NCBI GenBank assembly: GCA_964574535.1
Contig: CAZNOB010000002.1
Span: forward strand, 28,109-92,108
Source: an uncultured Granulosicoccaceae bacterium
Lineage (GTDB): Bacteria; Pseudomonadota; Gammaproteobacteria; Granulosicoccales; Granulosicoccaceae
Length of the DNA: 64,000 bases
Direction: 5' to 3'
Shown: in pieces, positions 31,997-46,580 of the stretch
Position numbering within the stretch: the stretch's first letter is position 1
How the letters are laid out: every line of letters starts with the position of its first letter
Notes under the pieces: model-generated
Seen by the model: the letters and a program-made list of their open reading frames with translations, nothing else
Databases searched by the model: none
What the model was told of the DNA's origin: nothing
Made by a program: the position numbers and the translations under genes

Positions 31997-32785
31997 ATGA
32001 AATCTCGATCTCAAATCTCTGAATACTGTTTTCTGGCCGGTACCGGACGTAGCGGGACGACCGTGTTGCGAAATTCTTTTGGCTTGCACCAGGAGATCTA
32101 CTATAACGGAAAAGAAAATAATGTCGTGCAGGATGTCATTGACGTGGCGAGGCACAATTTCGTTTCGCCTTCCCGACAGTTTGCTTTAGTCGTTGATAAG
32201 GACACATACTGCACCGCGTTTCGAGATCTTTTGATCAGAATACTTTGGCCCAATCCCGAATTCGGATCGCGCCCGGTCAGGATGGCGGCGATCAATCCGT
32301 CCGGCGAAACCATGGAGTTTCTGCTGGAGATTTTTCCAAATGCTAAAGTGATTGGGCTGGTACGGGATGGTATTGATGTTGTACTTTCCCGCCAGAGGCA
32401 CCGTTCTTTCAAGCGTTTCACCTTCGAGTCGCATTGTCAGACATGGGTTCGGACTCAAGGGGTGGTCGAATGGGGTGAATTGAATCCTAATAATTTTCGA
32501 TTGTTCAGGTACGATTCGTTGTCTGACCGCAAGACACTTTCGACTACCTTTGCCGAATTGTTTGGATGGATGGGGCTTTCGCAGAACGATGCAGCGGTCG
32601 AACATGTGTTCGAAAAGCGGTATCACCCCACTGAGCTGGAAAAATCTCAAGCTGATTCTAACGACTCATCAACAGCTGAATCCAAACGCGCTCTATGGCA
32701 ACTTTGGAGCGAAGAGGAAAGAGAGCTTTTCCGTTCGATCTGCGGACCGTTCATGAAGCAAATGGGATTCGAAATGCCCTTTTAA
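31997..32785 (+). CDS. sulfotransferase (PAPS-dependent; Sulfotransfer_3-like)
   Basis: 262 aa. The 5'-PSB loop is LAGTGRSGTTVL. The 3'-PB-like motif is GLVRDGIDVVLS. Confidence 0.75.
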   Translation: MKSRSQISEYCFLAGTGRSGTTVLRNSFGLHQEIYYNGKENNVVQDVIDVARHNFVSPSRQFALVVDKDTYCTAFRDLLIRILWPNPEFGSRPVRMAAINPSGETMEFLLEIFPNAKVIGLVRDGIDVVLSRQRHRSFKRFTFESHCQTWVRTQGVVEWGELNPNNFRLFRYDSLSDRKTLSTTFAELFGWMGLSQNDAAVEHVFEKRYHPTELEKSQADSNDSSTAESKRALWQLWSEEERELFRSICGPFMKQMGFEMPF

Positions 32786-32918
32786 TTTCGAAGAGGCTGT
32801 GTTTGCGTTTGCAGTTGACTACCCGGCAGTGCGAGCTCAACATTTCTGACGAATTTTGCGTAGACATCAACCAGATCGGATTCCCTTCCCTGCCTCCTGC
32901 AAGCTAACTTTCGGTATT

Positions 32919-35456
32919 TTAAATCGCGGTGTGAATTTCGATTGCTACCCCTGCGCACGAAATTGATTCTGCTGTTGGTGAGCAAATTGCCATGAACACA
33001 ATGGAATCAGCGTTTTCCAGTGTGCTTGCATCGAGCCAATGATTAAATTTTTCCCGGGGTTTCAAAGTGAATCTCCGAGTACGGAGTGACTTCCCACAAG
33101 CATCGTACAGATCGATTACGATCACAACCCCATTGTTTAGTTTTGAAGGGTTCCCTGCAATTGCGGACCAGATAATTCCTCGAGTATGTACATTTGCTCG
33201 CAAATCAATGTGCCACTTTGGCTGATCTGTCGGGGCAATGGTTGTTGGATGCAAGTTGCACGCAATGTGGCCATCTCGATCCACTTCTCTACACCATTTG
33301 TTTGCCTGCAGGATTTTTCTGCTTGCAAAAAAAACTGAAGTATCCACCTTGTTCGATGTTTGCCCGTCACTTGTTAAGCGAGGGGGATCGGGTTGTGACT
33401 GTGCCAGCTGGCTAAAGAGCAATGAGAGATGGCGGCCATGCATTAGTGGAGATTCACTTGCCCGATAAGCAGTCGAGCAGTAACCGGCAATTCTAATACA
33501 ACTCCCAACTTCATCAAGTATGTATGATTGAAAACTATTCGGCTTGCCGAAGGTTTCCTGCCAGTCAACCTTAACCACTCTTTCCGCAGTATTGATCCCA
33601 TTGAGCCACGCCAGTTTAGCCGTTTCGAAATCCCCAACAGACCATGAAATGACGCCTCTGCGAAAGTCAGCTTCTATGCTCTTCGTAGCAATTGTTGGGT
33701 GGAACAGGAGCGGGTCAATTTTACTACAGCGCAGATAGTAGTCACGCGCAGTGTCGAGTTGTCCAATTCTTTGTTCCATTCGCCCAAGCAGGAATAAAAG
33801 AGAAATTGCCCAACGTATCTCGTGCGGTTCATCACCGTATTCTGATAGCCAGGAAGTAACGGATTTCTTAAAACTTCTGGTTTCTGCGGCTGCGACATCC
33901 TTTTCTAAAAATTGATAACCAAGAACGCATAAGGCTGCCCCGACATCCACAGAGTGCGCATTCAATGAAATAATTTGTTCACACGCTCGGGAAACATCAG
34001 AGGGGTTATTCGGTCGAGCGTATTTGTACACCAGGTTTTGAGCAATCCAGGGATTGCTATAGGATTTTTCAAAGTCAGTAGCGATGCTATTGCTGTTTGG
34101 GAACCGCCGATCAATGTAGCCTTGTCCGTCGTGAGCAAGCGGGTCTTTAATTGCTGTAGCGAGTAACCATTCACTTATCGGTGCTTGTTCCTGCTCGGCG
34201 TCAAAAGGCACCAATCTACGCTGGTCTTTCTGCCACTTACCCTCATTTTTTGAGCGTGTAGCAGTCTGTGCAAACGTTCGGTCAATGGCGTACCTGACCA
34301 GAAGTTGTTCCTTTAGGCTCCTCCAATCATAAACATGAAAATGATGAGGGTTAGGATCAATGCCTGTGTCGTCACTCCAGTCGTGTGGAACGCTTACTAT
34401 TATGCGTCCACCTGGTAAAAGAATGTCCCAACATGCCTGCAGAAAGGCGAGGGGATCTGCAATGTGTTCCAGCGTCTCGAAACATACTATCGCATTCACT
34501 CCAAGCTTTTTTATGTTGGACAGGCCTTCTGGTAATTCGGTTTCTACAAATGTCAGATCGGGAGAGACAAACGCTGCTTTGCAATAGTCAATAGCTCGCT
34601 TGCTCTGATCCAGTCCGACGATTGTTCTGGCGTCAGTGCATGATTTCAACAGCCAACTACCGTAACCAAGTCCGCACGCCGCATCGACAACGACATCACC
34701 GCTCTTAATAAACTGTCGCGCCCAGTGATAACGTATCAGATGCGCGTCAGATCTTGCGCCGGTCTCGCGTCCCATATCCATGTGCAAGCCACGGTTTTCC
34801 AGCAACCAATCTGATGAGTAGCTCTGCATGACATTCTCTGAAATTTTCTGTCCCAGAAAAACAATGTCTTGCGTTGGCTCTCCCATCTTTTGGTATTGAT
34901 TGTGATCGAAATAGCGAGGGTGTCGTCGGAAACCATTGTCGATTATTTGTTCTTCCCACCATTCACGGTTTTTAACCGTCAGGTGCCATTTGGCATCGCG
35001 ATCAACACGAGTTGCAATTCTCAGGTACAGGTTGTTACGTGTCACACGCCAAAGCTCGGCAATACACTGACACACATCTTCCTCTGCCAGATGTTCCAGA
35101 CAATCTGTTGATATAACCGTATCGAAGGAGTTGTCGCCGAAGGGTAACTGGCGTGCATCTCCAATGTGAAACTTGCCAGGGATTTTTAAGTTACAGGAAT
35201 CAACGGCAACTTTCGAGACATCAGCCCCGTGAGCATCTACGCCGAGTTCCAAAAGGGCGCGGACCATACTCCCCATTCCGGCGCCAACATCCAAATAGCG
35301 CCCAAATCCACACGACTTAACAATCTCTCGGGCCAGCTTATCGGGCTCGTCAATACTTGAAGCGCCCGCACGATCGGGCAAAAGCCAATAGCCGTCATAA
35401 AGCTCGGCATAGTTAACTTCATTTGTACTAAAGGGAGGCCTGGGAGAGGTATTCAA
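32919..35456 (-). CDS. multidomain protein: two class I SAM-methyltransferase domains, a TPR-like helical region and a C-terminal beta-rich region
   Basis: 845 aa. MT domain 1 has YLDVGAGMGSMVRAL / FDTVISTDCLEHL. MT domain 2 has VVDAACGLGYGSWLL / IVCFETLEHI / LLPGGRIIVSVP. The helical segment reads LGRMEQRIGQLDTARDYYLRCSKIDP. The last ~200 aa are unassigned. Confidence 0.75.
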   Translation of the reverse strand: MNTSPRPPFSTNEVNYAELYDGYWLLPDRAGASSIDEPDKLAREIVKSCGFGRYLDVGAGMGSMVRALLELGVDAHGADVSKVAVDSCNLKIPGKFHIGDARQLPFGDNSFDTVISTDCLEHLAEEDVCQCIAELWRVTRNNLYLRIATRVDRDAKWHLTVKNREWWEEQIIDNGFRRHPRYFDHNQYQKMGEPTQDIVFLGQKISENVMQSYSSDWLLENRGLHMDMGRETGARSDAHLIRYHWARQFIKSGDVVVDAACGLGYGSWLLKSCTDARTIVGLDQSKRAIDYCKAAFVSPDLTFVETELPEGLSNIKKLGVNAIVCFETLEHIADPLAFLQACWDILLPGGRIIVSVPHDWSDDTGIDPNPHHFHVYDWRSLKEQLLVRYAIDRTFAQTATRSKNEGKWQKDQRRLVPFDAEQEQAPISEWLLATAIKDPLAHDGQGYIDRRFPNSNSIATDFEKSYSNPWIAQNLVYKYARPNNPSDVSRACEQIISLNAHSVDVGAALCVLGYQFLEKDVAAAETRSFKKSVTSWLSEYGDEPHEIRWAISLLFLLGRMEQRIGQLDTARDYYLRCSKIDPLLFHPTIATKSIEADFRRGVISWSVGDFETAKLAWLNGINTAERVVKVDWQETFGKPNSFQSYILDEVGSCIRIAGYCSTAYRASESPLMHGRHLSLLFSQLAQSQPDPPRLTSDGQTSNKVDTSVFFASRKILQANKWCREVDRDGHIACNLHPTTIAPTDQPKWHIDLRANVHTRGIIWSAIAGNPSKLNNGVVIVIDLYDACGKSLRTRRFTLKPREKFNHWLDASTLENADSIVFMAICSPTAESISCAGVAIEIHTAI

Positions 35457-35458
35457 AA

Positions 35459-36463
35459 CTAAAGGCCCTCCCGAAATGCAAAATATTCATGGAGTGTGGA
35501 AATCCAGTCTGCATTGCGCGCATAGCCCTGGCTCTTAATTTCATCACCCGCCAAATCCTGCAAAACCTGACCGTCTTTACGTGTCAGATATCGTGTCCAA
35601 TCGCCTGCTACACCTTTTCGGATATGAGCGTTCGGTATGGAATCGCCCGGAGATCGCCCCCCGGACATAATTTCAAAGCGAGTGTTTTCAATGCACTGTA
35701 GAATATTTTCTTTACTGATTGGTATGCCTAGAAAATCGATCAACCTTGCCAGTTCGGGTTCTGGAGTTAACAGTAAATTCTCATACCTGATTGTGCAGTC
35801 CGAAAACTGTCTTTCAAGTTGGGACATTGCTACCCATGCATTGACCCAGCTTTCCAGTTCCCCCGTCCTGAACGCTGTATCCAAAGATGATGTTGTCCTT
35901 TTCTCTGATATTGTTCGCAAGCGGCTGATCTCGAAATCACTTGGGCCTTGCTCGGATGTTATGCGTTCGTGCCAGTGATACATCCCGCTTACCGCGACAT
36001 CACGACAGTCTCTCATCAGGAAAAATATTTTTGCCTGAGGAAATGAACGTCTATAGGCATTGTACGTATCCTTTTCTGATCCCATATAAGGGGTTACCTT
36101 GTCGACGATCACTTTGGCATTCGTTCGCGATTTGACAAAGTTCAGCAGCATCATGACAAGTTCCTGTGTCAGTTCAACCCGCAATGCTTCCTGATCAGTC
36201 AATCCCCGGGGTTTGGACATGTGTTGTGCGAGCTTGTATGCATACCTGTCGGCAGTTAACCGAAAGTCACTTCGACCATGCTGATCGAATGCTGCCATTT
36301 CGCTGTTACCAAACAACCGTAGTTCGGTACAGTCAACATCCGGCAGTGCATTCAGCATCGCCTTCATCCATGTTGTTCCAGACCGAGGAGTAGAAAACAG
36401 GGCTACGTGCACGATGTCACCCTGGCATGCGTATCCGGTTGTGGTACTCGTTGTTCTCATCAT
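35459..36463 (-). CDS. sulfotransferase (Sulfotransfer_1-like)
   Basis: 334 aa. The 5'-PSB loop is FSTPRSGTTWM and the 3'-PB motif is FFLMRDCRDVAVS. The C-terminal RKGVAGDWTRYLT resembles the RKGxxGDW motif of cytosolic-type sulfotransferases. Confidence 0.85.
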   Translation of the reverse strand: MMRTTSTTTGYACQGDIVHVALFSTPRSGTTWMKAMLNALPDVDCTELRLFGNSEMAAFDQHGRSDFRLTADRYAYKLAQHMSKPRGLTDQEALRVELTQELVMMLLNFVKSRTNAKVIVDKVTPYMGSEKDTYNAYRRSFPQAKIFFLMRDCRDVAVSGMYHWHERITSEQGPSDFEISRLRTISEKRTTSSLDTAFRTGELESWVNAWVAMSQLERQFSDCTIRYENLLLTPEPELARLIDFLGIPISKENILQCIENTRFEIMSGGRSPGDSIPNAHIRKGVAGDWTRYLTRKDGQVLQDLAGDEIKSQGYARNADWISTLHEYFAFREGL

Positions 36464-36688
36464 TCTATTTGTTATGTAGATTTTGGATCAGAGACTGCTG
36501 GGTCAATATCTTCATGTATGCGGGCTGCGAATTATGGTGCTATTGGTATCAGTGCAGGAAGTACAGTTTTCCCAACACTGTTTTTTTGGCCGAATTTGAA
36601 ACCAGCGTTTGCGTCTAACGATGTGCAATTCATATAATTCATATGTCAAGAGCATTCCAGTTTGATTGGTTTATTTATGCTTTACAGT

Positions 36689-37771
36689 TCATTTGTTGTT
36701 TATCGCTTCTTCGTCACACAGAACATTTAATAATGCATCTATCGATTCAGTTCGCTCCTGAATCACCCCTCCTTCTATAAGTTCTGTCTCTGGTTGGTTT
36801 CTGGCATCGCTATTGCCAAAATGTTTTATGAACAAATGCATCACATGGCGAACGCCCATATCTGTCACACTTCTGCAATCCGGGGCGAAATACTGACCAC
36901 GACTAAAAGGGCTTGTGATAATTTCAAAGGATGGGAAGTAGACACATTGATCGATGTGTTGTGTGGCTTCTTCGGCCGCTACCCGTAAAACCGCTTTTGA
37001 CCAGGTTGATGACACAAAGACATGACGATCTTCTTTTGTGGCGTTGAGCGGGACCGGGGACACGGTCAAAACAAATTTAACGTCAGGGTTTTTTTCACGG
37101 ATAAAATTTAGCGCAAACAGCAAATCCTCTACTGTTTCTTGCTGATTAAAATTATAAAACTCAACGGTTTCAGGATCATAAATCCCACCAGCTATTCCTG
37201 GAGCGACCGGGTAAACAGCGCCACTGTGCTTATCGATCCAACACTCTGTTAGCCCAAGCGTAAAAACAAATACTTTCATTTGCTCGATTGCTTTTCTGAT
37301 TGACGCGAAATGGTAGGTCTGATCGGCTTGTAATTCCGCCTCTGAAACAAAGCCACCTGGTTGAATCTGCGGCCGGAATGGATCTACAACCGATTTTCCA
37401 TCTTTGCCCGCCCAGGAAATTGTTATTGGCTCAAAATTCTCGTATGCCCTTTGTAACAGTTGTTTCAGCTGTCTGGCTGTATAGATGTTTCCGTAGCGGG
37501 CTGCAAACATACCGTAGTTAAAGAGGGTTTGCGTGCTTTTGGGGAACATCGGGTGGGCTGTTTCGGTGATGAAATGGTTGAACCCCGATTGGCTGAGGTG
37601 GTGTGCCACATGCTGAGCAAAACAGGAACCGGCTGTTACCACCGCATCCTCCGGGCATATTTTGAATGGAGGCTCTGCGACCGGGTCAAACGTCTCCGGC
37701 CGGTTGATAGCCGCTTCTTTTTTCCAAAACTGATAGTCGGGTAAACCGCTATAGGGGCTTCGTATGCTCAT
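36689..37771 (-). CDS. GSCFA-family protein
   Basis: 360 aa containing the eponymous motif in VVTAGSCFAQHVAHHL. The start overlaps the stop of the upstream gene (ATGA). Confidence 0.8.
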   Translation of the reverse strand: MSIRSPYSGLPDYQFWKKEAAINRPETFDPVAEPPFKICPEDAVVTAGSCFAQHVAHHLSQSGFNHFITETAHPMFPKSTQTLFNYGMFAARYGNIYTARQLKQLLQRAYENFEPITISWAGKDGKSVVDPFRPQIQPGGFVSEAELQADQTYHFASIRKAIEQMKVFVFTLGLTECWIDKHSGAVYPVAPGIAGGIYDPETVEFYNFNQQETVEDLLFALNFIREKNPDVKFVLTVSPVPLNATKEDRHVFVSSTWSKAVLRVAAEEATQHIDQCVYFPSFEIITSPFSRGQYFAPDCRSVTDMGVRHVMHLFIKHFGNSDARNQPETELIEGGVIQERTESIDALLNVLCDEEAINNK

Positions 37772-38517
37772 AATAGCGTTTTGATTTGATTTAACACCAA
37801 GTGACCATAATCCTGGTTGGCATGTAGAGGGTCACCCAACCAAAATGATGGTTTTAGACAGCGATCGTCATCTATTGACTCAAACGGGGTGGGAAGAAAC
37901 GGTAAGCCGATCGAATCACAGAACGTTTCAATGATTTCGATGTGAATATCGTAGCATGCTAAACGTATTTCTTTCGGAGCTATTGTGCTCGTCGGTTGAT
38001 TGGCATAAAGATGCAGGCTATTTTTTAGTTGATTCACATCGGCAATGGGTGGAGGCGGGCTAAGGAAAAAGCAATTATTTTCTTTAAATTGATTGTGTAA
38101 CGATTCAATGAGTGTAAAGGTGTTTCTCGTTTCAAATACATCCTGCATTTGATATTTCAACATTGATCTTGGAACAAAATGTCTGGCCGATCGATTCGGG
38201 GTCAAGCCAAGTTCTTTGTCTCCCACTGAGTATGGAATAAGATATTCGGTATATGAAAAAATGTTGAACTCATTTCCAAAGAGTGACAGGCACACAGCAT
38301 CGATCTCTTCCGAATCCATCTTAAAAGGCACACTGAAATGAGTATACTTTTCTTTGTCTTTTTGCAAAAAATCTGTAGTTTTAAAATGGACACTTTCGAC
38401 ATTCCAATCGTCTGGCTTCTCCTCTGCTGCTTGTGTAACAGTATGTGAGTGAGACATTCCGATAACGAGCAGATTTTTCTGTTGGCCGTTTCTCTGTGCA
38501 TTTAGTTCGATTTGCAT
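37768..38517 (-). CDS. hypothetical protein, possibly SGNH/GDSL-like fold
   Basis: About 249 aa from the ATG at 38517 (MQIELNAQ...). LLVIGMSHSH is block-I-like, SLFGNEFN is block-III-like, and C-terminal GDPLHANQDYGHLV is DxxH block-V-like. The resemblance is by eye only. The ORF opens at 38631. Confidence 0.4.
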   Translation of the reverse strand: MQIELNAQRNGQQKNLLVIGMSHSHTVTQAAEEKPDDWNVESVHFKTTDFLQKDKEKYTHFSVPFKMDSEEIDAVCLSLFGNEFNIFSYTEYLIPYSVGDKELGLTPNRSARHFVPRSMLKYQMQDVFETRNTFTLIESLHNQFKENNCFFLSPPPPIADVNQLKNSLHLYANQPTSTIAPKEIRLACYDIHIEIIETFCDSIGLPFLPTPFESIDDDRCLKPSFWLGDPLHANQDYGHLVLNQIKTLL

Positions 38518-38813
38518 ATGCAGCCGTGCTTTTAGTTGTGTTGCCCAATGAAAGAATCGTACGCTAATCGATCGGAAGGGCGTTGGCACTTTCCCATTAT
38601 ATTCTGCCGTTTTTGCCAAATGTTCTGGCACATTGTGGAACGCCAGGGCACGTGCTTAGATAGCCCGGTAACTATGTACAACTCTAGTGAAGCTATCGGT
38701 ATTGTTTCCAGGCTCTATCCAGATATCGTCCGTTAGATTTACGTCATGTTGCCATGGGGCGAGCCCATCGATTAACTGCCGTAATTCGGATTCCTTATCT
38801 GTAGTCAATGGCT

Positions 38814-39866
38814 CTACCTTTTTTGTAAAACAATAACTGTTTGTCGCGCGTGACCGAGCGGGATTACTTCTTCAATTTCCATGAACCGGCCCCAGACATT
38901 TTCAATGTGGCTTATGGAATGGAACGCCATTCCTCGGTAAGGCCCAACCTGGGTGTGTCGAAAACCGGTATGTCCCTCTGGCATGGGGTTTTCAAGCAAT
39001 TCGTAAAGATTTGGTATCGCTTTCTCAAAGCGTAAAAGCGAATCTGGATCTTCTGTTGTGGCTTGTTGCATCGCTGCCCAAGTGGATTCGGTATGAGCCG
39101 TGAGCAAAGCAATTCCACCTGGCTTCAAAACGCGCCTGATTTCTGCAAGCCAGCCGGTTTCAAATATATCGCAATGGGTAAATACAGAATAAGCTAAGAC
39201 AGCATCGAAATAATTGTCTTCCATTGGCAAGCTGGCGAGTGCTGGAAGGCTAATGGGCAATACTTGTTTTGGCATAAATTCGGATAGCCATCTGATGTGG
39301 CGATGGTTTAGCTCGGTTGCCCAGACTTCTGTCGCATCACTCTGACAAGCAAAATGCCTTAATACTCGTCCACTCGCTGCGCCCAGCTCAAGAGTTTTTT
39401 GCAACTCCACCCCATACTTTTCAGCCAGGACAGTTGCGACATAATAGTCTCGATATCCGGAGAGCCAGTAATATTCGTTGTGTTCGTCGGTACCATAACC
39501 CTCGCGGTCACGACTGCACGGTATTGGTATTGAATCTTTGGATATTGCGTGCTTGAGGCGCTCTATTTCCAGATGCGAAATTTCTGATGGTATGCGCCCG
39601 GAGTTGATCAGTCTAAAGTCTGCAGGGTCCCATTGACTTAGAGGAATGGCATTGACGAATGGCTCTCTATCAAGAGCATTTATAGAAAGATCGTCTTCCC
39701 ACCGTAATGGCCGGGTTGGCGCACTTTTAGAGTTACCCGGTTGCGTTTCCTTGATGTTTAGCACTTGATTTTGATGCCTCAAAGTCATTTTATATGGCCT
39801 CAATTTTTGTCCATAGGCATAAGTATAGTCAGGATAATCGGGATTTTTTCTGAGGCTTCTTTGCAC
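38814..39866 (-). CDS. class I SAM-dependent methyltransferase with unassigned ~150-aa N-terminal region
   Basis: 350 aa. Motif I is TLELGAASGRVLRHFA, followed by FDAVLAYSVFTH and LKPGGIALLTAH. Confidence 0.75.
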   Translation of the reverse strand: MQRSLRKNPDYPDYTYAYGQKLRPYKMTLRHQNQVLNIKETQPGNSKSAPTRPLRWEDDLSINALDREPFVNAIPLSQWDPADFRLINSGRIPSEISHLEIERLKHAISKDSIPIPCSRDREGYGTDEHNEYYWLSGYRDYYVATVLAEKYGVELQKTLELGAASGRVLRHFACQSDATEVWATELNHRHIRWLSEFMPKQVLPISLPALASLPMEDNYFDAVLAYSVFTHCDIFETGWLAEIRRVLKPGGIALLTAHTESTWAAMQQATTEDPDSLLRFEKAIPNLYELLENPMPEGHTGFRHTQVGPYRGMAFHSISHIENVWGRFMEIEEVIPLGHARQTVIVLQKR

Positions 39867-39894
39867 TCTTGAATGATATTGAGAGATCGAGCGA

Positions 39895-40605
39895 TTATCT
39901 TTTAAGAGGCAAGCTCAGGCCTCTGTGAGCAAGAATCCCATTGTAGATGATGTATTCGTCAGCCAGGATTTCACGTAACTGAGGTTCATATCTTTCGAGG
40001 GCCTCCTGCATGGCTTGTCGGTTCCTGTTTACATTGTTACGAAGCGCCGGTTGGCTTTTCCCTCCAAGTGCTTGTAATACAATTTGAAAGTCTTCATCGA
40101 AATTTTCTGTAATCCCTACAAAGTCAAATTTCTCAATAGCGTTGTACAGGGCTTCCTCAGATGTTGCGGAGTCAAAGGGTTTTAGATACTCCAGCGTTTT
40201 ATTCATATCGCCGGGGGATTGCATGTAGTCCTCGAACGTCGGAAATTGATTCTTAAATCCTTCCGGGTCCGTGTGCGCTTCGGAAATGCAGTAGAAATAG
40301 TCAGAAAGCGTCCGCTGGACAGGGTCCCTGAGAAACGTGATGAGTGCTACTCGTTCGCGGACCGGAGAGATAACATCAGCGATATCACGATACCGGTAGT
40401 GTCCCGAGATCATCCTCTCTTCACGGTCGAATAGTTGCGGTAAAAGTTTGATAAAACCGTCTCTGAGGTCAGCATACCCACCTTCATAGGGACCAAAGAC
40501 AAATGACGGTTTATGAGGGATCTGGTTGAAAATCTCGCCGAGTGTGTCACGCAGAGTAGTGCCAGCGGTTTTGGGTATGTGGATATTAATCAAGTGTTGT
40601 TTCAT
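39895..40605 (-). CDS. sulfotransferase (Sulfotransfer_2-like)
   Basis: From the ATG at 40605 the sequence is MKQHLINIHIPKTAGTTLRDTL. HIPKTAGT resembles the 5'-PSB loop of family-2 sulfotransferases. About 236 aa. The longer ORF to 40698 is unlikely. Confidence 0.65.
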   Translation of the reverse strand: MKQHLINIHIPKTAGTTLRDTLGEIFNQIPHKPSFVFGPYEGGYADLRDGFIKLLPQLFDREERMISGHYRYRDIADVISPVRERVALITFLRDPVQRTLSDYFYCISEAHTDPEGFKNQFPTFEDYMQSPGDMNKTLEYLKPFDSATSEEALYNAIEKFDFVGITENFDEDFQIVLQALGGKSQPALRNNVNRNRQAMQEALERYEPQLREILADEYIIYNGILAHRGLSLPLKR

Positions 40606-40844
40606 GAAGATCCCGTTGCTTACCTGAATATTTATCTTTGTCAATTCCCAAAAAAAACCTGTCTGAACTATAGTTAATAGTAGCGGTAATTTTGACAAAG
40701 TTTCGATCCACTTTGCTTTTCACTTATATTGGCAATATAAGTTGGGCTATTCACCAGATGTTAGTTCAGTGAACTGCAACGTTGTTTAGCCTCTCAAAGT
40801 TTCTTTAGCCGTTAGTATATTAAGTTGTTTTATACAAAGGGAAT

Positions 40845-41870
40845 ATGAATAAAATACTTGTTCTCGGTGGTGCGGGTTACATTGGCAGCCACACTTGCAA
40901 ACGTCTTCGTGCTTCGGGATTCGACCCTGTCACTTATGACAATCTATCTGAAGGCTACGCAGAATTCGTTAAATGGGGCGAGTTGATTGCCGGGGACATT
41001 CGTTGCAGAAGTGAACTAGATGCTGCACTTGCGCGCGTACGTCCCGCTGCCGTCATTCACTTTGCCGCCTATGCCTATGTGGGAGAGTCTGTCACCAACC
41101 CTGGTAAGTATTATGAAAACAATACGCTGGGTTCTCTCAATGTGGCTCAGGCACTTCGCGATGCAGGCAATATACCGCTAATATTTTCATCGACTTGTGC
41201 AACCTACGGCATCCCTGACGACGGGCTCATTAGCGAAGATAACGCGGTCCAGCCGATCAATCCGTATGGTAGAAGCAAGCTGATGGTAGAGCAGATTCTG
41301 CAGGATTTTTCGTCCGCCCATGGATTAAGAAGTGCGTGCCTGAGATATTTCAACGCAGCTGGAGCAGACCCTGATAGAGAGATTGGTGAAGCACATCGTG
41401 AAGAAACCCACGTGATACCACGAGCAATACTGGCGGGTCTTGGTCGTATCGATAACTTTGCGGTATTTGGAGACGATTACAGTACGAAAGATGGGTCCGC
41501 TGTACGCGACTATGTCCATGTAAATGATCTCGCAGATGCGCACGTCGCCGCTTGTCGGTATTTGGTGGATAAAAATGGCCAAAGCGACGTATTTAATGTT
41601 GGCGTTGGGCGAGGGTATTCGGTGCTGGAAATAATTAAAGCGGTAGAAGAGGAAATCGGAAACCGGGTCCCTTACACAGTGAAATCTCGTCGGCCCGGAG
41701 ATCCTCCGGAGCTGGTGGCCGCCACCGATAAGACACAAAAAATACTTGGTTTCCAGGCGCAGTATTCGGACCTGCCTGGTATTGTTCAAACTGCAGCCGC
41801 CTGGCATCGCATGAATTGGATGCCAGCCAAAGTGAGCCGCACCGGAAATCGAGTACCCAGTTTTGCTTAA
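40845..41870 (+). CDS. galE: UDP-glucose 4-epimerase
   Basis: 341 aa. Contains ILVLGGAGYIGSH (Rossmann motif), STCATYG and YGRSK (SDR catalytic YxxxK). An AAGGGA RBS precedes the ATG. Confidence 0.9.
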   Translation: MNKILVLGGAGYIGSHTCKRLRASGFDPVTYDNLSEGYAEFVKWGELIAGDIRCRSELDAALARVRPAAVIHFAAYAYVGESVTNPGKYYENNTLGSLNVAQALRDAGNIPLIFSSTCATYGIPDDGLISEDNAVQPINPYGRSKLMVEQILQDFSSAHGLRSACLRYFNAAGADPDREIGEAHREETHVIPRAILAGLGRIDNFAVFGDDYSTKDGSAVRDYVHVNDLADAHVAACRYLVDKNGQSDVFNVGVGRGYSVLEIIKAVEEEIGNRVPYTVKSRRPGDPPELVAATDKTQKILGFQAQYSDLPGIVQTAAAWHRMNWMPAKVSRTGNRVPSFA

Positions 41871-44643
41871 GCTCTCTGAAGTTTATGACTGGTTTTTTAA
41901 TCTGGATTTTGTCCGAAGTCAATATCCGATGCTTAAAGAAAAGTCTGACACAGCGATAATCAGGGATATACTCGATCCGGATAATACCTCCCCGTACGAT
42001 CCTAACCTCCTTTTTGACGGTAGTTTCTATAAGCGTAATCTCGGAAGCGGGACTTCGCTAAGAAATCCGGTTCTTCACTTTTTGACAGAAGGTGCGAATC
42101 AGGGACTCTCATCAAATCTCTGCTTTGATCCCCTGTATTATCTGACACAAGTACCCGGCCCGCCGATGTCGGTCATGGCCGCTTTGAAAGATGCGTTGTC
42201 CAGGTTGGACGGGAAGGGCACGTTGCCAGCGTTCCACCCCTTCATTAATGAGGAATACATTCGGCTTCAGCACAATCCCGGTGAGCCATCAGATTTTTAC
42301 TTACGGCTTTTTCGAGGTAACTACTTCATCAGCAAATCTGCACCTCTGGTGGACATCGCCTATTTTGGCCACAGCGTGCAGAAAGAGTTTGATAGTTTTG
42401 CAGAAGCATTCGGCCATTATTGGCAGGCTGAAGAGGATCTATCAACCCATGTTCTTTTTGAGCTGGATTACTACCGAAGCCAGCTTCCGGACGAAGAACG
42501 GGTTCGCCGCGCGGTTTACCATTACCTGGTCAGTGATCACCCTCTATCGCCACAACCATTGTTTGATCCGGGCTTTTACCTGGCTTCAACCCGGAAATTG
42601 TTGGGTGAAAGCCCAAGGCGTCCGTTTGAACATTTTCTCACCAAAGGACAAGCCGCGGGTTTGACTCCCTCGCCACTATTCGACGTCGATTTTTATCGAC
42701 GGCAAACGCATTGCGGACCCGATGCGTTACAGCACTATCTGGAAGGTGGCCACCGTAGTACCGAGGCACACCCGATGGTCAGGTTCGCTGAGGCAAGATT
42801 GCTATCAAACGCCGCACTAGACCCGAATCGTTCAACCTTGTCTCGGTTGGCGGAATCGTCTCCCGAGTTGCCGCTAAGTGTGACACCGGAATTTGACCCG
42901 TCTTACTGGAAGCCGAAGTCTGGAAAGGCACTTCCTGCGGATGCTTCTGAAATCGAGCTAAGGGACCACTATCTGAAACAGGGTTACCCGGCCGGGCTTT
43001 GTCCCAATTGGCTTCTATCAGCAAGCTACATTGCAAAACAGGCTGAGCTTGAAGATAAAAAAAACGTTAACTCCATTCAGCACTATTTTAGTCAGGGGTG
43101 GCATCGGCGCGTAGGTGTAATGATCGCGTTGCATTCTTTTCAGGACACACCGGGAAATCGGACCTGGCTGGAAATTTTGCGGGGACAAGTTGATGTCACT
43201 GACCTCGAAGTGATCGTTGTTGCACAAAGTCCCGGACCTTTATCTAAAGAGTTTCGTGATTGTGCTCATGTCTGGCAAGTGCCTAAGCCAACGGAAAATA
43301 AGTCTCATAGCGAACAACTGGAAATCTCGATCACTCGACTGAATGAAACGCTGCAAGCCAATCCCCCTGCTGTGGTGTTTGTTGAAGGCGAGTCAGATTG
43401 GCTACTTGCTATGAATCTCAAAGTGTTCGACGCACCTAAAGTTCTGTTTGGCGGCCCAAAGCTTCTGCAAGCTGAACACGAAGATGTGGAGCAAATAAAC
43501 ACCGCGGCGAACCTTGTCTGGAGTCTAGCCGGACCTGTGAGCGATCACCTCAAGCGCTTATTCGATACCAGTAACATTCAGGTACGAGAAGGCTATTACC
43601 CTGGAGCGAATGCACGGGCGATAACACGAAGCCGATTGGGAGTCGGGTCAGATGCCATTCTGGTCGTCGGTAGTGGCCCGCTGGATATCGCGAACGGTGT
43701 TGATCTGTTCGGCGCTATTGCAGCCAGGTACTACACAGCATCGGGAACGAAGCCGGATTTGTGCTTTGCCTGGCAGGGTTCGGGTCCTACACACCCAAAC
43801 ACCCCGGCGTTCTATGCCAGGTATGCCGTGGACATAGCGGCAGGCCCCGGTAAATTGCACATTCTGACAGACATTGATACGCGAAGCGTGCTGGCGGCTG
43901 CAGATATTTTTCTGCAAACCAGACGGCACCACTCCGATTTTGATGCAAGCGATGACGCCAGGGCCATGGGTGTGCCGGTATTGCGTATGAGTGACACGCT
44001 TGACAGCGACACGCAGACATTTGCACCTTATGATCTTGATGACGCTGTCTCAGCGCTGGCATTCCTGGTCGAGAATCTGAAGCCGCCGAGTATCTTTCGC
44101 ACGGGAGCACTGGCGGATACTTCAAACAATTCAGATCTCTCAAAATTTGTGCGAAGTTTTAATGAATGCACGCAGTCCCTGGGTGTGGATGTAAAGTTTG
44201 TCGAGCCAGCATCTACTACGCAATGTCAAAACCTGCTTGTTCTCACAAGTGAGAAGCGTTTAATCAAAATTAGAGAGTTCGAGCCGACGAAGCGATATTT
44301 TGGTCTGCCTGATAGTGTACGTATTTCACAAGCACAGCTGGAGCATATGGATCTGCCTGACGGGTTCAAAAACCTGTTAGTACAAGAGAGCGAAAGCGAC
44401 CTTGTCTTTTGCGCGGTCGAGACCGCAGACCTCTCTGGTCTGGCGGATAGGTTCAATCGGTTGATCGGGTTGCTGGAGGCAGGCGATTTGGATCTCGATG
44501 TGGCTGGCAAGATGAGCGCAGTCTGCGACCGAATAGCGGTGGACAGTCCGGAACTGAGTACAGCGATGGAGGCAATTAATCCTCGTAAAGCTGCAGCATT
44601 GACTTATACCAACGGAGATATCCCGTGCTCAGAAGCCTGTTAA
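41863..44643 (+). CDS. large repeat protein with degenerate GT4-like C-terminal half
   Basis: 926 aa. Residues ~12-416 are ~10 divergent tandem repeats (FD..FY...HY/HF....G....P). Residues ~417-730 are paralogous to the next gene's GT4 domain, but the EX7E region is replaced (DFDASDDARAMGVPVL). A TTG start overlaps the galE stop by 8 nt. An alternative ATG lies at 41929. Confidence 0.6.
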   Translation: MLKLSEVYDWFFNLDFVRSQYPMLKEKSDTAIIRDILDPDNTSPYDPNLLFDGSFYKRNLGSGTSLRNPVLHFLTEGANQGLSSNLCFDPLYYLTQVPGPPMSVMAALKDALSRLDGKGTLPAFHPFINEEYIRLQHNPGEPSDFYLRLFRGNYFISKSAPLVDIAYFGHSVQKEFDSFAEAFGHYWQAEEDLSTHVLFELDYYRSQLPDEERVRRAVYHYLVSDHPLSPQPLFDPGFYLASTRKLLGESPRRPFEHFLTKGQAAGLTPSPLFDVDFYRRQTHCGPDALQHYLEGGHRSTEAHPMVRFAEARLLSNAALDPNRSTLSRLAESSPELPLSVTPEFDPSYWKPKSGKALPADASEIELRDHYLKQGYPAGLCPNWLLSASYIAKQAELEDKKNVNSIQHYFSQGWHRRVGVMIALHSFQDTPGNRTWLEILRGQVDVTDLEVIVVAQSPGPLSKEFRDCAHVWQVPKPTENKSHSEQLEISITRLNETLQANPPAVVFVEGESDWLLAMNLKVFDAPKVLFGGPKLLQAEHEDVEQINTAANLVWSLAGPVSDHLKRLFDTSNIQVREGYYPGANARAITRSRLGVGSDAILVVGSGPLDIANGVDLFGAIAARYYTASGTKPDLCFAWQGSGPTHPNTPAFYARYAVDIAAGPGKLHILTDIDTRSVLAAADIFLQTRRHHSDFDASDDARAMGVPVLRMSDTLDSDTQTFAPYDLDDAVSALAFLVENLKPPSIFRTGALADTSNNSDLSKFVRSFNECTQSLGVDVKFVEPASTTQCQNLLVLTSEKRLIKIREFEPTKRYFGLPDSVRISQAQLEHMDLPDGFKNLLVQESESDLVFCAVETADLSGLADRFNRLIGLLEAGDLDLDVAGKMSAVCDRIAVDSPELSTAMEAINPRKAAALTYTNGDIPCSEAC

Positions 44644-46580
44644 GTCAGCCTCAGCCCTCGCACATGCAAGAAATCGACAGTGATGAAGTCATAACCGAGA
44701 CACTTGCTGTTTCCAATGCAGTCGATAGGCCGTACTACCTTTCAAATAATTCAGATGTAGCACTGGCGAAGATTGATCCCTTATTGCATTTTTATCTCCA
44801 TGGGGCCGCCGAAGGACGCCTGCCCAACCCCTGGTTTACAGAAGGCTATATTCGAAGCAGCCTGCATCAGACATCATTCTACGAACAGTCCATTCCGAAC
44901 GCCTACGTTGACTCCGGCTTGTATGACAAGCCGAGATTGATTTTTGTCAGTCACGATGCCTCCCGTACCGGTGCACCGGCTATTATTCTGCAGTTGCTTG
45001 AGCTGTTCAGTCAGGGTGGTGCTTTTGAATGTTTTTCGATTCTGGATGATGGCGGTGAGCGTTTGTCCGAGTTTCAGGCTTTGTCCCATACCCATGTTAT
45101 GTCCCGGCATCGATATGACACAACTTTTTCAGAAGAGGAAGCTACACTGGAGTTAGCGGCTCTGTTCGATCCCAACGGATTGTTTAAAGATAATGCCCCA
45201 GTTTGCGCATTGGTGAATTCTGCTGAGTCCATTCGTATCGCGCGAATTCTGGCGAAGACCGGCGTTCCCATAATCTCTTTGATACATGAAATTGCCGCTT
45301 ATTATCCATCCAGAATTTTCACAGAGTTCGGCAACCTGTCGGAGAAAGTTGTATTTCCGTCCGAGTTCGTCAAGGACGCCGCAGAGTGTTTTTCAGACAT
45401 TCAGAGCGACAAAATCCACGTACGAGGACAGGGCCTTCTGACCGACGGTTTCGGTTCAGCGGAGCGCGATAACTGCCGCAAGCTGCTTCGAGAAGAGTTG
45501 GGAATCGAGCAGGACGCCGTTATTGTTCTGAATGTGGGTACTATGGATCTTCGAAAAGGTGGTGATTTGTTTGTCGAGACAGCAAAAATCTGCCTGCAGC
45601 GGCTCCCTGAAGGGTCACCGTTGTACTTTGTGTGGTATGGAAAATCAGATGTAAACTTGAACTATCCCCATGAGATCGTTCAGCAGTACGGGCTCGAGGA
45701 GCATATCCGATTTATGCCGGCTACGCCGGAGATAGAGCAGGTGTTTATGGGGGGGGATATTTTCCTGTTGACTGCCCGGGCGGATCCGTTTCCCTGTGTC
45801 ATTCACGAAGCAATGGCTTGCGGACTTCCAGTTGTGGCTTTCCGAAATGGTGGTGGTGCACCGGAACTCATTGGTGATGATTGCGGGCAGGTAGTAGAGA
45901 TGATGAACCTGAAGGCCATGTCTGACGCTATCTTCATTTATATGAATGATCCGGAGATTCGCCGAACTCACGCCAGAAACGCCATCGCAAAAATTGCCCG
46001 TAGCTGGGATTATCGAAGCTATCAGAATGATCTCTACACACTAATGCAAAGCTGTGTTTCTGCGCCGAAATCAGGCTGGCCAGAACTGCTGCAACCGTGG
46101 TCACCGGAGAAACTGATCATCATGCATGGGTCGCAGAGCGATTTGCAGACCTTTGAAAAACTGATTGACGGGAGTGCAGGTTCACTGGATATTGCATTGA
46201 TAAATGGTCGTTTTGACGTTGATACAGAATCTATTGCTGCTCGTCTCCGACAACTTGAGCATCGTACCCGCCACTTCCAGCCGGAAGAGGATACACCTGA
46301 GGATCGGGCGGCGGTCGTGGTAAAATTGTTGAAACAGCCGAATATTCGGGAAGCTGTACTGGTTGATGTGATTCAGTACATCCTTCCTTCTCAGCTTAAA
46401 ACCCTTGATTATCCGGTCCACGTTGTGCAAACGGAAATGTCTCCTAACGACGCAAATCTGCATCTCGTCCTGCCTTATATCGCAAGCTTGACACTGAAAG
46501 ATGGAAAAAAGATCAACCTGACGTTTGAAGAGAAAAACCAAAAAACCAAATTATCACCGAAGATTCATACTATTGCTTAA
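44625..46580 (+). CDS. glycosyltransferase family 4 (GT-B, group 1) with N-terminal repeat unit
   Basis: 651 aa. Contains RLIFVSHDASRTGAP, VLNVGTMDLRKGGDLF and GDIFLLTARADPFPCVIHEAMACGLPVVAFRNGGGAPELI (EX7E-type motif). The N-terminus carries one copy of the repeat seen in the previous gene (DRPYYLSNNSDVALAKIDPLLHFYLHGAAEGRLPNPWF). An alternative ATG lies at 44664. Confidence 0.85.
   Translation: MLRSLLSQPQPSHMQEIDSDEVITETLAVSNAVDRPYYLSNNSDVALAKIDPLLHFYLHGAAEGRLPNPWFTEGYIRSSLHQTSFYEQSIPNAYVDSGLYDKPRLIFVSHDASRTGAPAIILQLLELFSQGGAFECFSILDDGGERLSEFQALSHTHVMSRHRYDTTFSEEEATLELAALFDPNGLFKDNAPVCALVNSAESIRIARILAKTGVPIISLIHEIAAYYPSRIFTEFGNLSEKVVFPSEFVKDAAECFSDIQSDKIHVRGQGLLTDGFGSAERDNCRKLLREELGIEQDAVIVLNVGTMDLRKGGDLFVETAKICLQRLPEGSPLYFVWYGKSDVNLNYPHEIVQQYGLEEHIRFMPATPEIEQVFMGGDIFLLTARADPFPCVIHEAMACGLPVVAFRNGGGAPELIGDDCGQVVEMMNLKAMSDAIFIYMNDPEIRRTHARNAIAKIARSWDYRSYQNDLYTLMQSCVSAPKSGWPELLQPWSPEKLIIMHGSQSDLQTFEKLIDGSAGSLDIALINGRFDVDTESIAARLRQLEHRTRHFQPEEDTPEDRAAVVVKLLKQPNIREAVLVDVIQYILPSQLKTLDYPVHVVQTEMSPNDANLHLVLPYIASLTLKDGKKINLTFEEKNQKTKLSPKIHTIA

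What the first reader, a model, noticed from the sequence alone, without database searches (positions are those of the whole stretch)
41896..43110. About ten tandem divergent 35-40-aa repeats (FD..FY ... HY/HF...G....P) forming the N-terminal 400 aa of the 926-aa protein, with one copy on the adjacent GT4
I read these successive units: FDGSFYKRNLG...LHFLTEGANQGLSSNLC, then FDPLYYLTQVPG..., VDIAYFGHSVQ...FGHYWQAEEDLSTHVL and FELDYYRSQLPD...VYHYLVSDHPLSPQPL. They continue with FDPGFYLASTRK...FEHFLTKGQAAGLTPSPL, FDVDFYRRQTHCGPDALQHYLEGGHRS, FDPSYWKPKSG...RDHYLKQGYPAGLCPNWL and LSASYIAKQAE...IQHYFSQGWHRR. The next gene begins with one more copy (DRPYYLSNNSDVALAKIDPLLHFYLHGAAEGRLPNPWF) ahead of its GT4 domain. 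I cannot assign this repeat to a named domain from memory. Similar FDxxFY...HY..G..EGR.P units seem to decorate some glycan-modifying enzymes of marine and alpha-proteobacteria, but I know of no function for them. An array of about ten copies suggests a multivalent binding or scaffolding module, for example for a polymeric acceptor or the membrane.
Basis: seen in the sequence. Interest (0 to 1): 0.6.

Follow-up and report, generated by a model that had tools for sequence, protein, structure and literature searches.

The report
Undescribed 38-residue repeat on glycan enzymes
The first 420 residues of a 926-residue sugar-transferase-like protein are ten diverged copies of a very common bacterial 38-residue repeat that no database searched here names; it most likely works as a connector that joins sugar-chain-building enzymes to each other, though that role is inferred, not shown.

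Summary
Residues 12-420 of the 926-aa protein (41863-44643, +) contain ten tandem units of 35-41 aa. Seven are individually significant against a profile built only from unrelated proteins, and three are degenerate. The array scores 112.6 bits against at most 8.5 for 1000 shuffles. The adjacent GT4 carries one more unit (aa 33-70).

The canonical period is 38 aa: F-D-x-x-[WYF]-Y-L...P-D-V...P-L-x-H-[YF]-L-x-x-G-x-x-E-G-R-x-P-H-P-L. The family is very large: 24,179 clusters at 50% identity, with up to 24 copies per protein. About 7% of sampled Pseudomonadota species carry it. It also occurs in RTX proteins, and giant-virus glycan enzymes give weak structural matches.

No Pfam or NCBIfam model covers it, no PDB sequence matches, and no paper was found. 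A 6-unit AlphaFold2 model (pLDDT 95) has no Foldseek neighbour in the PDB.

Partners are almost always cytoplasmic glycan enzymes (GT2, GT4, RgpF, GT61, WbsX, methyl-, pyruvyl- and sulfotransferases).

Best reading (about 0.45): a non-catalytic solenoid that connects or docks enzyme modules, here pairing the degenerate GT-B protein with its active GT4 neighbour. A glycan-binding role is not excluded.

First-stage readers of this scan noted the same repeat on other genomes; none of those notes carries a follow-up check.

The parts
41863..44643 (+). Gene for the 926-aa protein (P0001): repeat array, then a degenerate GT-B domain, then a C-terminal alpha/beta domain
   Evidence: ORF and translation. 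Colinear orthologues at 30-62% identity. No Pfam or NCBIfam hit.
41896..42012 (+). Unit 1 (aa 12-50), degenerate
   Evidence: 3.8 bits against the independent profile. It has the start motif FNLDFV and is conserved in orthologues.
42013..42123 (+). Unit 2 (aa 51-87)
   Evidence: 28.0 bits, E 8e-11.
42124..42243 (+). Unit 3 (aa 88-127); only the first half is canonical
   Evidence: 15.0 bits.
42244..42348 (+). Unit 4 (aa 128-162), degenerate
   Evidence: 2.4 bits. In register with its neighbours.
42349..42456 (+). Unit 5 (aa 163-198), degenerate
   Evidence: 4.2 bits. It keeps the H-Y-W core.
42457..42561 (+). Unit 6 (aa 199-233)
   Evidence: 23.2 bits.
42562..42678 (+). Unit 7 (aa 234-272), the best copy
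   Evidence: 44.9 bits, E 4e-16.
42679..42798 (+). Unit 8 (aa 273-312)
   Evidence: 29.4 bits.
42799..42891 (+). Irregular 31-aa insert (aa 313-343); not a unit
   Evidence: -0.8 bits. Present in all orthologues.
42892..43014 (+). Unit 9 (aa 344-384)
   Evidence: 14.2 bits.
43015..43122 (+). Unit 10 (aa 385-420)
   Evidence: 12.4 bits, scored on aa 385-424.
43111..44082 (+). Degenerate GT-B (GT4-like) domain, roughly aa 417-740
   Evidence: Aa 583-707 align with the GT4 C-terminal Rossmann half of the neighbour (29% identity, E 8e-9). The AF2 model shows beta-alpha-beta topology and matches MshA, HepE, BshA and WaaG by Foldseek (E about 1e-5). It falls below every Pfam threshold.
44200..44640 (+). 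C-terminal alpha/beta domain (roughly aa 780-926), unassigned
   Evidence: AF2 secondary structure with pLDDT about 70-85. No family hit.
44625..46580 (+). Adjacent GT4 gene (P0002, 651 aa); overlaps the end of the upstream gene by 19 nt
   Evidence: Pfam Glycos_transf_1 at E 1.5e-22 over aa 287-453. ORF listing.
44721..44834 (+). Single repeat unit at the N-terminus of the GT4 (aa 33-70)
   Evidence: 30.7 bits, E 1e-11 against the independent profile. Retained in three separate orthologous GT4s and decayed in the natural fusion.
40845..41870 (+). GalE-type UDP-hexose 4-epimerase, first gene of the plus-strand operon
   Evidence: TIGR01179 galE at E 1e-121. The same position is conserved in L008 and L009.

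Best explanation
The N-terminal 420 residues are a diverged array of ten copies of a very widespread but undescribed 38-residue repeat. In its canonical form each unit is predicted to fold into three short helices plus an extended P-H-P-L-F segment that forms a bridge to the next unit, and the units stack into a solenoid. The module has no catalytic motif. I propose that it is a protein-protein connector for glycan-assembly enzymes. In cis it links or spaces catalytic modules within giant multidomain enzymes. In trans, terminal units on separate polypeptides stack on each other to dock the enzymes. In this locus the ten-unit array of the catalytically doubtful GT-B protein would be the platform, and the active GT4 would dock onto it through its single N-terminal unit, possibly together with the island's sulfo- and methyltransferases. 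Shown: the repeat itself, its distribution, its partner domains, its confident predicted fold, and its absence from Pfam, NCBIfam and the PDB. Inferred: the docking and connector function.
For: (1) In this 6.18-Mb genome only two proteins carry the repeat, and they are adjacent, overlapping genes.
(2) In one relative the two proteins are fused (P0006, 1556 aa).
(3) The GT4's lone unit is kept at 28.6-48 bits in three separate orthologues whose GT4 cores are 58-82% identical to P0002. In the fusion it has decayed to 7.2 bits although the GT4 core is 71% identical. This is as expected if the unit is needed only when the partners are separate.
(4) Three independent plasmid loci show the same split. 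Two units sit at the extreme C-terminus of one protein and one unit at the extreme N-terminus of the next gene's glycosyltransferase: E. coli pPSS-16_1, Enterobacter pCAV1043-97 and Thalassovita pAge77.
(5) In giant enzymes the array lies between modules. All seven scanned proteins with an internal array have GT modules C-terminal to it. Four of them also have a recognised tailoring domain N-terminal to it: methyltransferase, pyruvyl transferase or FkbM methyltransferase.
(6) The most conserved positions are largely hydrophobic, Pro or Gly, as in structural solenoids. The 6-unit AF2 model is very confident (pLDDT 95.1, pTM 0.90).
(7) Unit number and order are conserved across orthologues down to 30% identity.
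Against: There is no direct evidence of any interaction, and complexes could not be modelled. The fusion-decay argument rests on one fusion lineage. In the window pair both sets of units are N-terminal, unlike the C-terminal-to-N-terminal arrangement of the plasmid pairs. The repeat also occurs in RTX-type, presumably secreted, proteins, where docking of cytoplasmic enzymes cannot be its role. Several polar positions are strongly conserved: D2 86%, H23 90%, and D12, N19, E31, R33 and H36 at 57-61%. These could form a repeated ligand site. The AF2 model of this protein's own array is poor (pLDDT 30-65).
Confidence: 0.45

Rival explanations
1. The array is a glycan-binding module. Each unit would offer a site for one repeat of the nascent or finished polysaccharide. 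This would hold the growing chain on the enzyme for processivity, and in RTX proteins it would tether the secreted protein to a surface glycan.
For: The repeat associates almost exclusively with polysaccharide enzymes. It also occurs in RTX proteins that cannot be docking cytoplasmic enzymes. Aromatic and polar positions are conserved in every unit: [WYF]5, Y6, H23, [YF]24, E31, R33 and H36. High copy numbers suit a polymeric ligand. From general knowledge, the aromatic-rich YG repeats of glucansucrases and choline-binding repeats are multivalent polymer binders on or near glycan enzymes.
Against: Partner enzymes make chemically unrelated glycans and include GT2, GT4, GT61, RgpF, WbsX, methyl-, pyruvyl- and sulfotransferases, yet the consensus is nearly the same everywhere. 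Lone terminal units and the '2+1' split across adjacent genes are hard to explain by ligand binding. The arrays are net acidic, which does not suit anionic or sulfated polymers. In this protein most polar consensus residues are lost although the array is conserved among orthologues.
Confidence: 0.25
2. The array is mainly a rigid spacer (a molecular ruler), analogous to the coiled coil of WbdD and WbbB. It would hold a chain-terminating or tailoring domain at a fixed distance from the polymerising glycosyltransferases, so that copy number sets glycan chain length.
For: The architecture tailoring domain - array - GT2/GT4 is seen in P0016, P0017, P0018 and P0150. Copy number ranges from 1 to 24 between systems but is fixed among orthologues. 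E. coli and Enterobacter plasmid examples lie in ABC-transporter-dependent (kpsMTED-like) loci. The coiled-coil ruler principle is established (PMC11231755, PMC3482155).
Against: In 84 of 149 high-copy proteins, and in this one, the array is at the free N-terminus with nothing to space. P0018 has both a coiled coil and an array. This locus has no ABC transporter or terminator-polymerase pair. One to three terminal units are too short to act as a ruler.
Confidence: 0.15
3. The array recruits a protein acceptor, as the TPR superhelix does in O-GlcNAc transferase or FlmG. The locus would then glycosylate, and afterwards sulfate or methylate, a protein.
For: The layout is an N-terminal helical-repeat array followed by a GT-B domain, and OGT, SPY and ApNGT appear among the Foldseek matches of the whole model. 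The cassette has no flippase, polymerase or exporter.
Against: The OGT-type matches come from the GT-B half; the array itself has no structural neighbour in the PDB. No candidate acceptor gene is conserved next to the cassette. Most partner enzymes are classic polysaccharide enzymes.
Confidence: 0.07

Closest known systems
Coiled-coil ruler and polymerase-recruitment region of WbdD and WbbB (ABC-transporter-dependent O-antigen assembly)
   Same: Both are non-catalytic elongated modules in or between terminator/tailoring domains and polymerising glycosyltransferases. The C-terminal end of the methyltransferase-type protein recruits the polymerase (PMC11231755). The same gene order, methyltransferase protein then GT, with repeat units at the junction, is seen in E. 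coli pPSS-16_1.
   Different: This is not a coiled coil. It is a 38-aa three-helix solenoid repeat. It is often a free N-terminal array, and no function has been tested.
TPR superhelix of GT41 O-GlcNAc transferases (and the TPR of FlmG flagellin glycosyltransferases)
   Same: An N-terminal helical tandem-repeat array precedes a GT-B catalytic fold. OGT and SPY appear among the Foldseek hits of the whole-protein model.
   Different: No TPR, ARM or HEAT Pfam model covers the arrays (only 2 of 80 canonical arrays gave a sporadic Arm hit). The array model has no PDB neighbour at all. The unit has three helices plus a bridging strand, not a helix hairpin.
Aromatic-rich polymer-binding repeats (YG/glucan-binding repeats of glucansucrases, choline-binding repeats); comparison from general knowledge
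   Same: Many short aromatic-rich tandem units are attached to enzymes that make or act on polysaccharides.
   Different: Those are beta-hairpin repeats of about 20 aa on extracellular proteins. This repeat is helical, 38 aa long and mostly on cytoplasmic enzymes. No sequence or structure match was found.
Octatricopeptide (OPR, 38-aa) repeats
   Same: Same period of 38 residues and helical (PMC12691811, listed).
   Different: From general knowledge, OPRs are organellar RNA-binding repeats of eukaryotes with a different consensus. No Pfam repeat model matched.

Membership tests
The unnamed 38-aa 'FD..[WYF]YL..PDV...PL.H[YF]L..G..EGR.PHPL' repeat family (defined here) | Significant match to a unit profile built from unrelated proteins | tested here: met
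   The array scores 112.6 bits against at most 8.5 bits for 1000 shuffles. Seven units are individually significant, and the GT4 unit scores 30.7 bits.
The unnamed 38-aa 'FD..[WYF]YL..PDV...PL.H[YF]L..G..EGR.PHPL' repeat family (defined here) | Head-to-tail units with a period of about 38 aa | tested here: met
   Spacings are 39, 37, 40, 35, 36, 35, 39, 71 and 41 aa. Canonical arrays have exactly 38 aa.
The unnamed 38-aa 'FD..[WYF]YL..PDV...PL.H[YF]L..G..EGR.PHPL' repeat family (defined here) | Full consensus, including the polar positions D12, N19, E31, R33 and H36 | tested here: not met
   The units of this protein mostly keep F1, D2, Y6, H23, [YF]24 and G28. They largely lack P-D-V, E-G-R and P-H-P. 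It is a diverged member.
The unnamed 38-aa 'FD..[WYF]YL..PDV...PL.H[YF]L..G..EGR.PHPL' repeat family (defined here) | Three-helix unit stacking into a solenoid | tested here: inconclusive
   The canonical 6-unit model is confident (pLDDT 95.1). The model of this protein's own array is poor (pLDDT 30-65, two helices per unit). Model coordinates could not be inspected.
Named helical repeats (TPR, ARM, HEAT, Sel1, PPR/OPR) | Match to the family's Pfam model, or a structural neighbour of that class | tested here: not met
GT4 retaining glycosyltransferases (C-terminal half of the 926-aa protein) | Pfam Glycos_transf_1 / Glyco_trans_1_4 match above threshold | tested here: not met
   No Pfam or NCBIfam hit at E <= 1. 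No PDB sequence hit with the family profile.
GT4 retaining glycosyltransferases (C-terminal half of the 926-aa protein) | GT-B two-Rossmann fold | tested here: met
   Beta-alpha-beta topology with pLDDT 70-85. Foldseek matches MshA, HepE, BshA and WaaG at E about 1e-5. BLASTP to the neighbouring GT4 gives E 8e-9.
GT4 retaining glycosyltransferases (C-terminal half of the 926-aa protein) | Donor-binding residues: the Lys/Arg of the R-K-G loop and the glutamates of the E-x7-E motif | tested here: inconclusive
   In the pairwise alignment, R-K-G of the GT4 corresponds to A-N-G here, and no orthologue has Lys there. The second Glu is Asp here and Glu in two orthologues. This suggests loss of activity but does not prove it.
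Coiled-coil molecular rulers (WbdD/WbbB type) | Extended coiled coil separating a terminator from a polymerase in an ABC-transporter-dependent locus | tested here: not met
   The array consists of short helices in 38-aa units, not a coiled coil. There is no N-terminal terminator domain and no ABC transporter in the island.

The most novel reading that the evidence does not exclude
The 38-residue unit defines a new protein fold class: an alpha/bridge solenoid with no relative among solved structures. It would act as a universal 'docking code' of bacterial, and possibly giant-virus, glycan assembly lines. Terminal units on separate enzymes would stack in trans, typically two C-terminal units plus one N-terminal unit, to order the enzymes, much as docking domains order PKS and NRPS modules. 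Array length would additionally set the spacing between active sites.
Probability: 0.25. Interest if true: 0.85.

Novelty: new variant of a known kind. Interest (0 to 1): 0.62.

Why it matters
A repeat found in about 24,000 protein clusters, and in roughly one in fourteen sampled Pseudomonadota species, has no entry in Pfam or NCBIfam, no match in the PDB and no description in the searchable literature. Its hosts include E. coli and Enterobacter capsule plasmids and plant-associated alphaproteobacteria. It sits on the large multidomain enzymes that build O-antigens, capsules and exopolysaccharides. How the catalytic modules of those enzymes are ordered and held together is only understood for a few coiled-coil systems. 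If the units are docking or spacing elements, they would give a sequence-readable rule for which enzymes work together. They would also offer a handle for engineering glycan assembly lines and a new solenoid fold for structural study. The window's gene pair, one ten-unit array plus one lone unit with a natural fusion as control, is a compact test case.

Tried and rejected
1. Named-domain assignment failed. Pfam and NCBIfam gave nothing on the protein, its relatives and 80 canonical arrays. Sporadic hits (DUF7669 in 5 of 80, Arm in 2 of 80, ADD_DNMT3 in 12 of 80) are treated as repeat-inflated noise.
2. The PDB sequence search found nothing with either the unit profile or the family profile.
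4. The full-length AF2 model with a 5-sequence alignment modelled the array poorly. It was used only for the GT-B half.
5. Literature searches with motif strings, 'x' motif notation, '38-residue repeat', DUF7669 and solenoid/glycosyltransferase terms found no description.
6. A DNA-level tandem repeat (recent expansion) was rejected: Tandem Repeats Finder finds none.
7. A membrane-anchor role was rejected. The highest 19-residue Kyte-Doolittle mean is 1.33-1.42, and the arrays are net acidic.
8. The ESM Atlas gave only unnamed clusters.
Surface mapping of the conserved residues could therefore not be done.
Full report
**What is there.** The plus-strand ORF 41863-44643 (TTG start, 926 aa, P0001) follows a GalE-type epimerase gene (40845-41870). 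It overlaps by 19 nt a 651-aa GT4 glycosyltransferase gene (44625-46580, P0002). P0001 has no Pfam or NCBIfam hit even at E <= 1. The stated coordinates 41896-43110 equal aa 12-416.

**Is the repeat real?** A loose regex for the unit start hits at aa 12, 51, 88, 128, 163, 199, 234, 273, 344 and 385, and once in the remaining 500 residues. To avoid circularity I built a profile only from units of distant proteins (P0009-P0014) and scored P0001 with it.
- Aa 1-430 score 112.6 bits.
- The best of 1000 shuffles scores 8.5 bits.
- The C-terminal half scores -0.8 bits.

Scored unit by unit, seven units reach 12-45 bits. Three (aa 12-50, 128-162 and 163-198) are degenerate at 2-4 bits. Aa 313-343 is an insert, not a unit.

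The copy on the neighbouring GT4 (aa 35-69) scores 30.7 bits. No DNA-level tandem repeat exists. Five orthologues at 30-62% identity are colinear unit by unit. The array is therefore old and its layout is under constraint.

**The repeat family.** Relatives found with the N-terminal region carry the same unit in front of GT61, RgpF and GT4 domains. Canonical units are exactly 38 aa long. The consensus from 1183 units is as follows.

| Position | Residue | Frequency |
|---|---|---|
| 1 | F | 100% |
| 2 | D | 86% |
| 5 | W/Y/F | 92% combined |
| 6 | Y | 99% |
| 7 | L | 64% |
| 11-13 | P-D-V | 59-69% |
| 20-21 | P-L | 82-83% |
| 23 | H | 90% |
| 24 | Y/F | 93% combined |
| 25 | L | 57% |
| 28 | G | 90% |
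| 31-33 | E-G-R | 58-66% |
| 35-38 | P-H-P-L | 60-89% |

A unit profile (A1) searched against 1.84 billion representative proteins gave these counts.

| E-value threshold | Clusters matched |
|---|---|
| <= 1e-3 | 24,179 |
| <= 1e-10 | 15,339 |
| <= 1e-30 | 4,044 |

Arrays reach up to 24 units. Among 149 high-copy proteins the array is N-terminal in 84, internal in 54, C-terminal in 7 and spans the whole protein in 4.

Further points on distribution:
- In an even sample of 200 Pseudomonadota species, 14 carry an array.
- 106 plasmid records carry it, from Azospirillum, Bradyrhizobium, Escherichia, Ralstonia, Rhizobium and others.
- A variant sits at the N-terminus of RTX-type proteins. One example is a 462-aa Rhodospirillum rubrum plasmid protein with four units followed by GGxGxD nonapeptides.
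- Foldseek against viral models gives weak matches to giant-virus proteins, with two at E <= 1e-3 (a Fadolivirus and a Hyperionvirus glycosyltransferase). Weaker rows include an FkbM methyltransferase.

**Is it a named or solved domain?** It is not in anything I could search.
- No Pfam model covers it in P0009, which has 17 units.
- No Pfam or NCBIfam model covers the 80 canonical 6-unit arrays.
- ESM Atlas clusters made of these arrays carry no common Pfam 38.1 family.
- The unit profile hits no PDB sequence.
- Seven literature searches found no description (one search retrieved only the analogue).

First-stage notes of this scan record the same repeat on other genomes, always as uncharacterised. 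Those notes are unchecked leads, not support.

**Predicted structure.** A full-length AF2 model of P0001 from a 5-sequence alignment is poor over the array (pLDDT 30-65). It is acceptable over the C-terminal half. I then aligned 80 six-unit windows of exact 38-aa period (A4). The resulting model of P0040 aa 33-260 is very confident (pLDDT 95.1, pTM 0.90).

Each unit in that model has three short helices, of about 7, 5 and 9 residues.

**The rest of the protein and the locus.** Aa 583-707 of P0001 align with the C-terminal Rossmann half of the neighbouring GT4 (29% identity, E 8e-9). The model's C-terminal half matches GT-B enzymes (MshA, HepE, BshA, WaaG) at E about 1e-5. The R-K-G loop of the GT4 corresponds to A-N-G here, and no orthologue has a Lys at that position. 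Catalytic competence is therefore doubtful. Neither protein has a hydrophobic segment.

The surrounding island carries three sulfotransferases, methyltransferases and a GSCFA protein, but no exporter. It lies between housekeeping genes.

A core cassette recurs in three other genomic contexts: methyltransferase, Sulfotransfer_2, GalE-like epimerase, repeat protein and GT4. Its carriers include a Rhodobacteraceae MAG.

The host is a gammaproteobacterium. Its LeuRS is 81% identical to that of 'Chromatiales bacterium (ex Bugula neritina AB1)'.

**Function: evidence.** Partner domains in 49 high-copy proteins were tallied.

| Partner domain | Proteins |
|---|---|
| GT2 | 14 |
| GT4 | 13 |
| RgpF | 4 |
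| GT61 | 3 |
| WbsX, WsaF, Methyltransf_24, pyruvyl transferase, Sulfotransfer_3 | 1 each |

Nine of the largest high-copy proteins were scanned with Pfam. In the seven with an internal array, GT modules lie C-terminal to the array. Four of these also have a recognised tailoring domain N-terminal to it: P0016 (methyltransferase), P0017 (pyruvyl transferase), P0018 (methyltransferase plus coiled coil) and P0150 (FkbM methyltransferase plus a further GT4).

Four observations point to a protein-protein connector role.
1. In this genome only P0001 and P0002 carry the repeat, and their genes are adjacent.
2. A natural fusion of the two exists (P0006, seen on three contigs).
3. The lone GT4 unit is retained where the genes are separate and decayed where they are fused.

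| GT4 orthologue | Unit score (bits) | GT4 core identity to P0002 |
|---|---|---|
| L009 (separate gene) | 48.2 | 82% |
| L008 (separate gene) | 30.6 | 58% |
| L001 (separate gene) | 28.6 | 58% |
| P0006 (fused) | 7.2 | 71% |

4. Three unrelated plasmid loci show the same split. Two units lie at the extreme C-terminus of one protein and one unit at the extreme N-terminus of the next gene's glycosyltransferase.

| Plasmid | Upstream protein, with unit positions | Downstream GT, with unit position |
|---|---|---|
| E. coli pPSS-16_1 | 912-aa methyltransferase, 833-906 | GT2, 14-50 |
| Enterobacter pCAV1043-97 | 291-aa protein, 219-290 | GT, 4-39 |
| Thalassovita pAge77 | 184-aa protein, 111-182 | GT, 14-51 |

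The two enterobacterial loci are kpsMTED-like ABC-transporter loci. In that pathway the C-terminal end of the methyltransferase-type terminator WbdD is known to recruit the polymerase, and a coiled coil acts as a ruler (PMC11231755, PMC3482155).

I infer that a single unit is unlikely to be stable alone and stacks on a partner's units. In the window the only available partner is the P0001 array.

**Limits and rivals.** None of this is direct evidence.
- The fusion-decay argument rests on one lineage.
- The window pair has both sets of units at N-termini.
- RTX proteins carry the repeat outside the cytoplasm.
- Several polar positions are strongly conserved, which could indicate a repeated ligand site.

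I therefore give the connector/docking reading 0.45, glycan binding 0.25, a pure ruler 0.15 and protein-acceptor recruitment (OGT-like) 0.07. The remainder is unassigned. Membrane binding is rejected.

**Comparison with known systems.** Functionally the nearest analogues are three.
- The coiled-coil and recruitment region of WbdD and WbbB.
- The TPR array of GT41 enzymes.
- Aromatic-rich polymer-binding repeats.

It is a member of none of them. No family model matches, and there is no coiled coil and no structural neighbour.

This instance is a diverged member of the unnamed family. It keeps F1, D2, Y6, H23, [YF]24 and G28 but has lost most of P-D-V, E-G-R and P-H-P.

**Verdict.** This is a real and statistically solid feature. 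It belongs to a very large repeat family that is absent from Pfam, NCBIfam and the PDB and undescribed in the papers searched. The canonical array has a confident predicted fold that appears novel. Function is inferred only. Tandem-repeat accessory modules on enzymes are a known kind, but this family and fold are not described, so I rate novelty as 'new variant of a known kind'. Interest is 0.62.

Noticed in passing
L006:2492-7162 and L007:936-5606 (protein P0006, 1556 aa): A natural fusion of the 926-aa repeat protein and the GT4 into one polypeptide, flanked by Sulfotransfer_2 genes. The GT4's N-terminal repeat unit has decayed (7.2 bits) although the GT4 core is 71% identical to the window's.
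   Followed up: yes
window 31997-46580; L008:5395-14787; L009:7165-14679: A compact cassette recurs in different chromosomal contexts in alpha- and gammaproteobacteria: methyltransferase, Sulfotransfer_2, GalE-like epimerase, repeat protein and GT4. It has no exporter, flippase or initiating transferase. Its product and acceptor are unknown.
   Followed up: partly
L010:6586-11747 (E. coli plasmid pPSS-16_1); L012:6365-9469 (Enterobacter asburiae pCAV1043-97): Plasmid-borne kpsMTED-like ABC-transporter polysaccharide loci in Enterobacteriaceae. The upstream protein ends in two repeat units and the next glycosyltransferase begins with one.
   Followed up: yes
L011:5983-7371 (Rhodospirillum rubrum ATCC 11170 plasmid): A 462-aa RTX-type protein (GGxGxD nonapeptides) with four N-terminal copies of a roughly 42-aa variant of the same repeat. 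It lies next to a methyltransferase-regulatory-domain gene and near an ABC transporter pair. The repeat is therefore not confined to cytoplasmic enzymes.
   Followed up: partly
BFVD matches to model m3f6fe3d47fd7: Weak Foldseek matches of the array model to giant-virus (Fadolivirus, Hyperionvirus, Harvfovirus, Indivirus) proteins, at 23-36% identity in the aligned parts. Only two glycosyltransferases reach E <= 1e-3. An FkbM methyltransferase and a dTDP-sugar reductase match at E about 0.1.
   Followed up: no
window 43111-44082 (aa 417-740 of the 926-aa protein): A GT-B/GT4-like domain below all Pfam thresholds. The R-K-G loop of the neighbouring GT4 corresponds to A-N-G here, with no Lys in any orthologue. 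The second Glu of the E-x7-E region is Asp here but Glu in two orthologues. It is possibly a pseudo-enzyme partner of the adjacent GT4.
   Followed up: partly
window 44200-44640 and 46095-46577: Both the repeat protein and the GT4 end in an extra domain of about 150 aa with no family assignment. In the repeat protein the model shows it to be alpha/beta. BLASTP finds no similarity between the two domains.
   Followed up: no
window 58205-60385 (+): A 726-aa ORF between ubiH-like and leuS genes has no Pfam family at E <= 1e-5.
   Followed up: no
window 60613-63216 (+) and the whole genome G000: The host is an uncultured-type gammaproteobacterium (6.18 Mb, 430 contigs). Its LeuRS is 81% identical to that of 'Chromatiales bacterium (ex Bugula neritina AB1)' and 68% to Granulosicoccaceae. 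The closest named orthologue of the repeat protein is in a Rhodobacteraceae MAG, which suggests horizontal spread of the cassette.
   Followed up: partly
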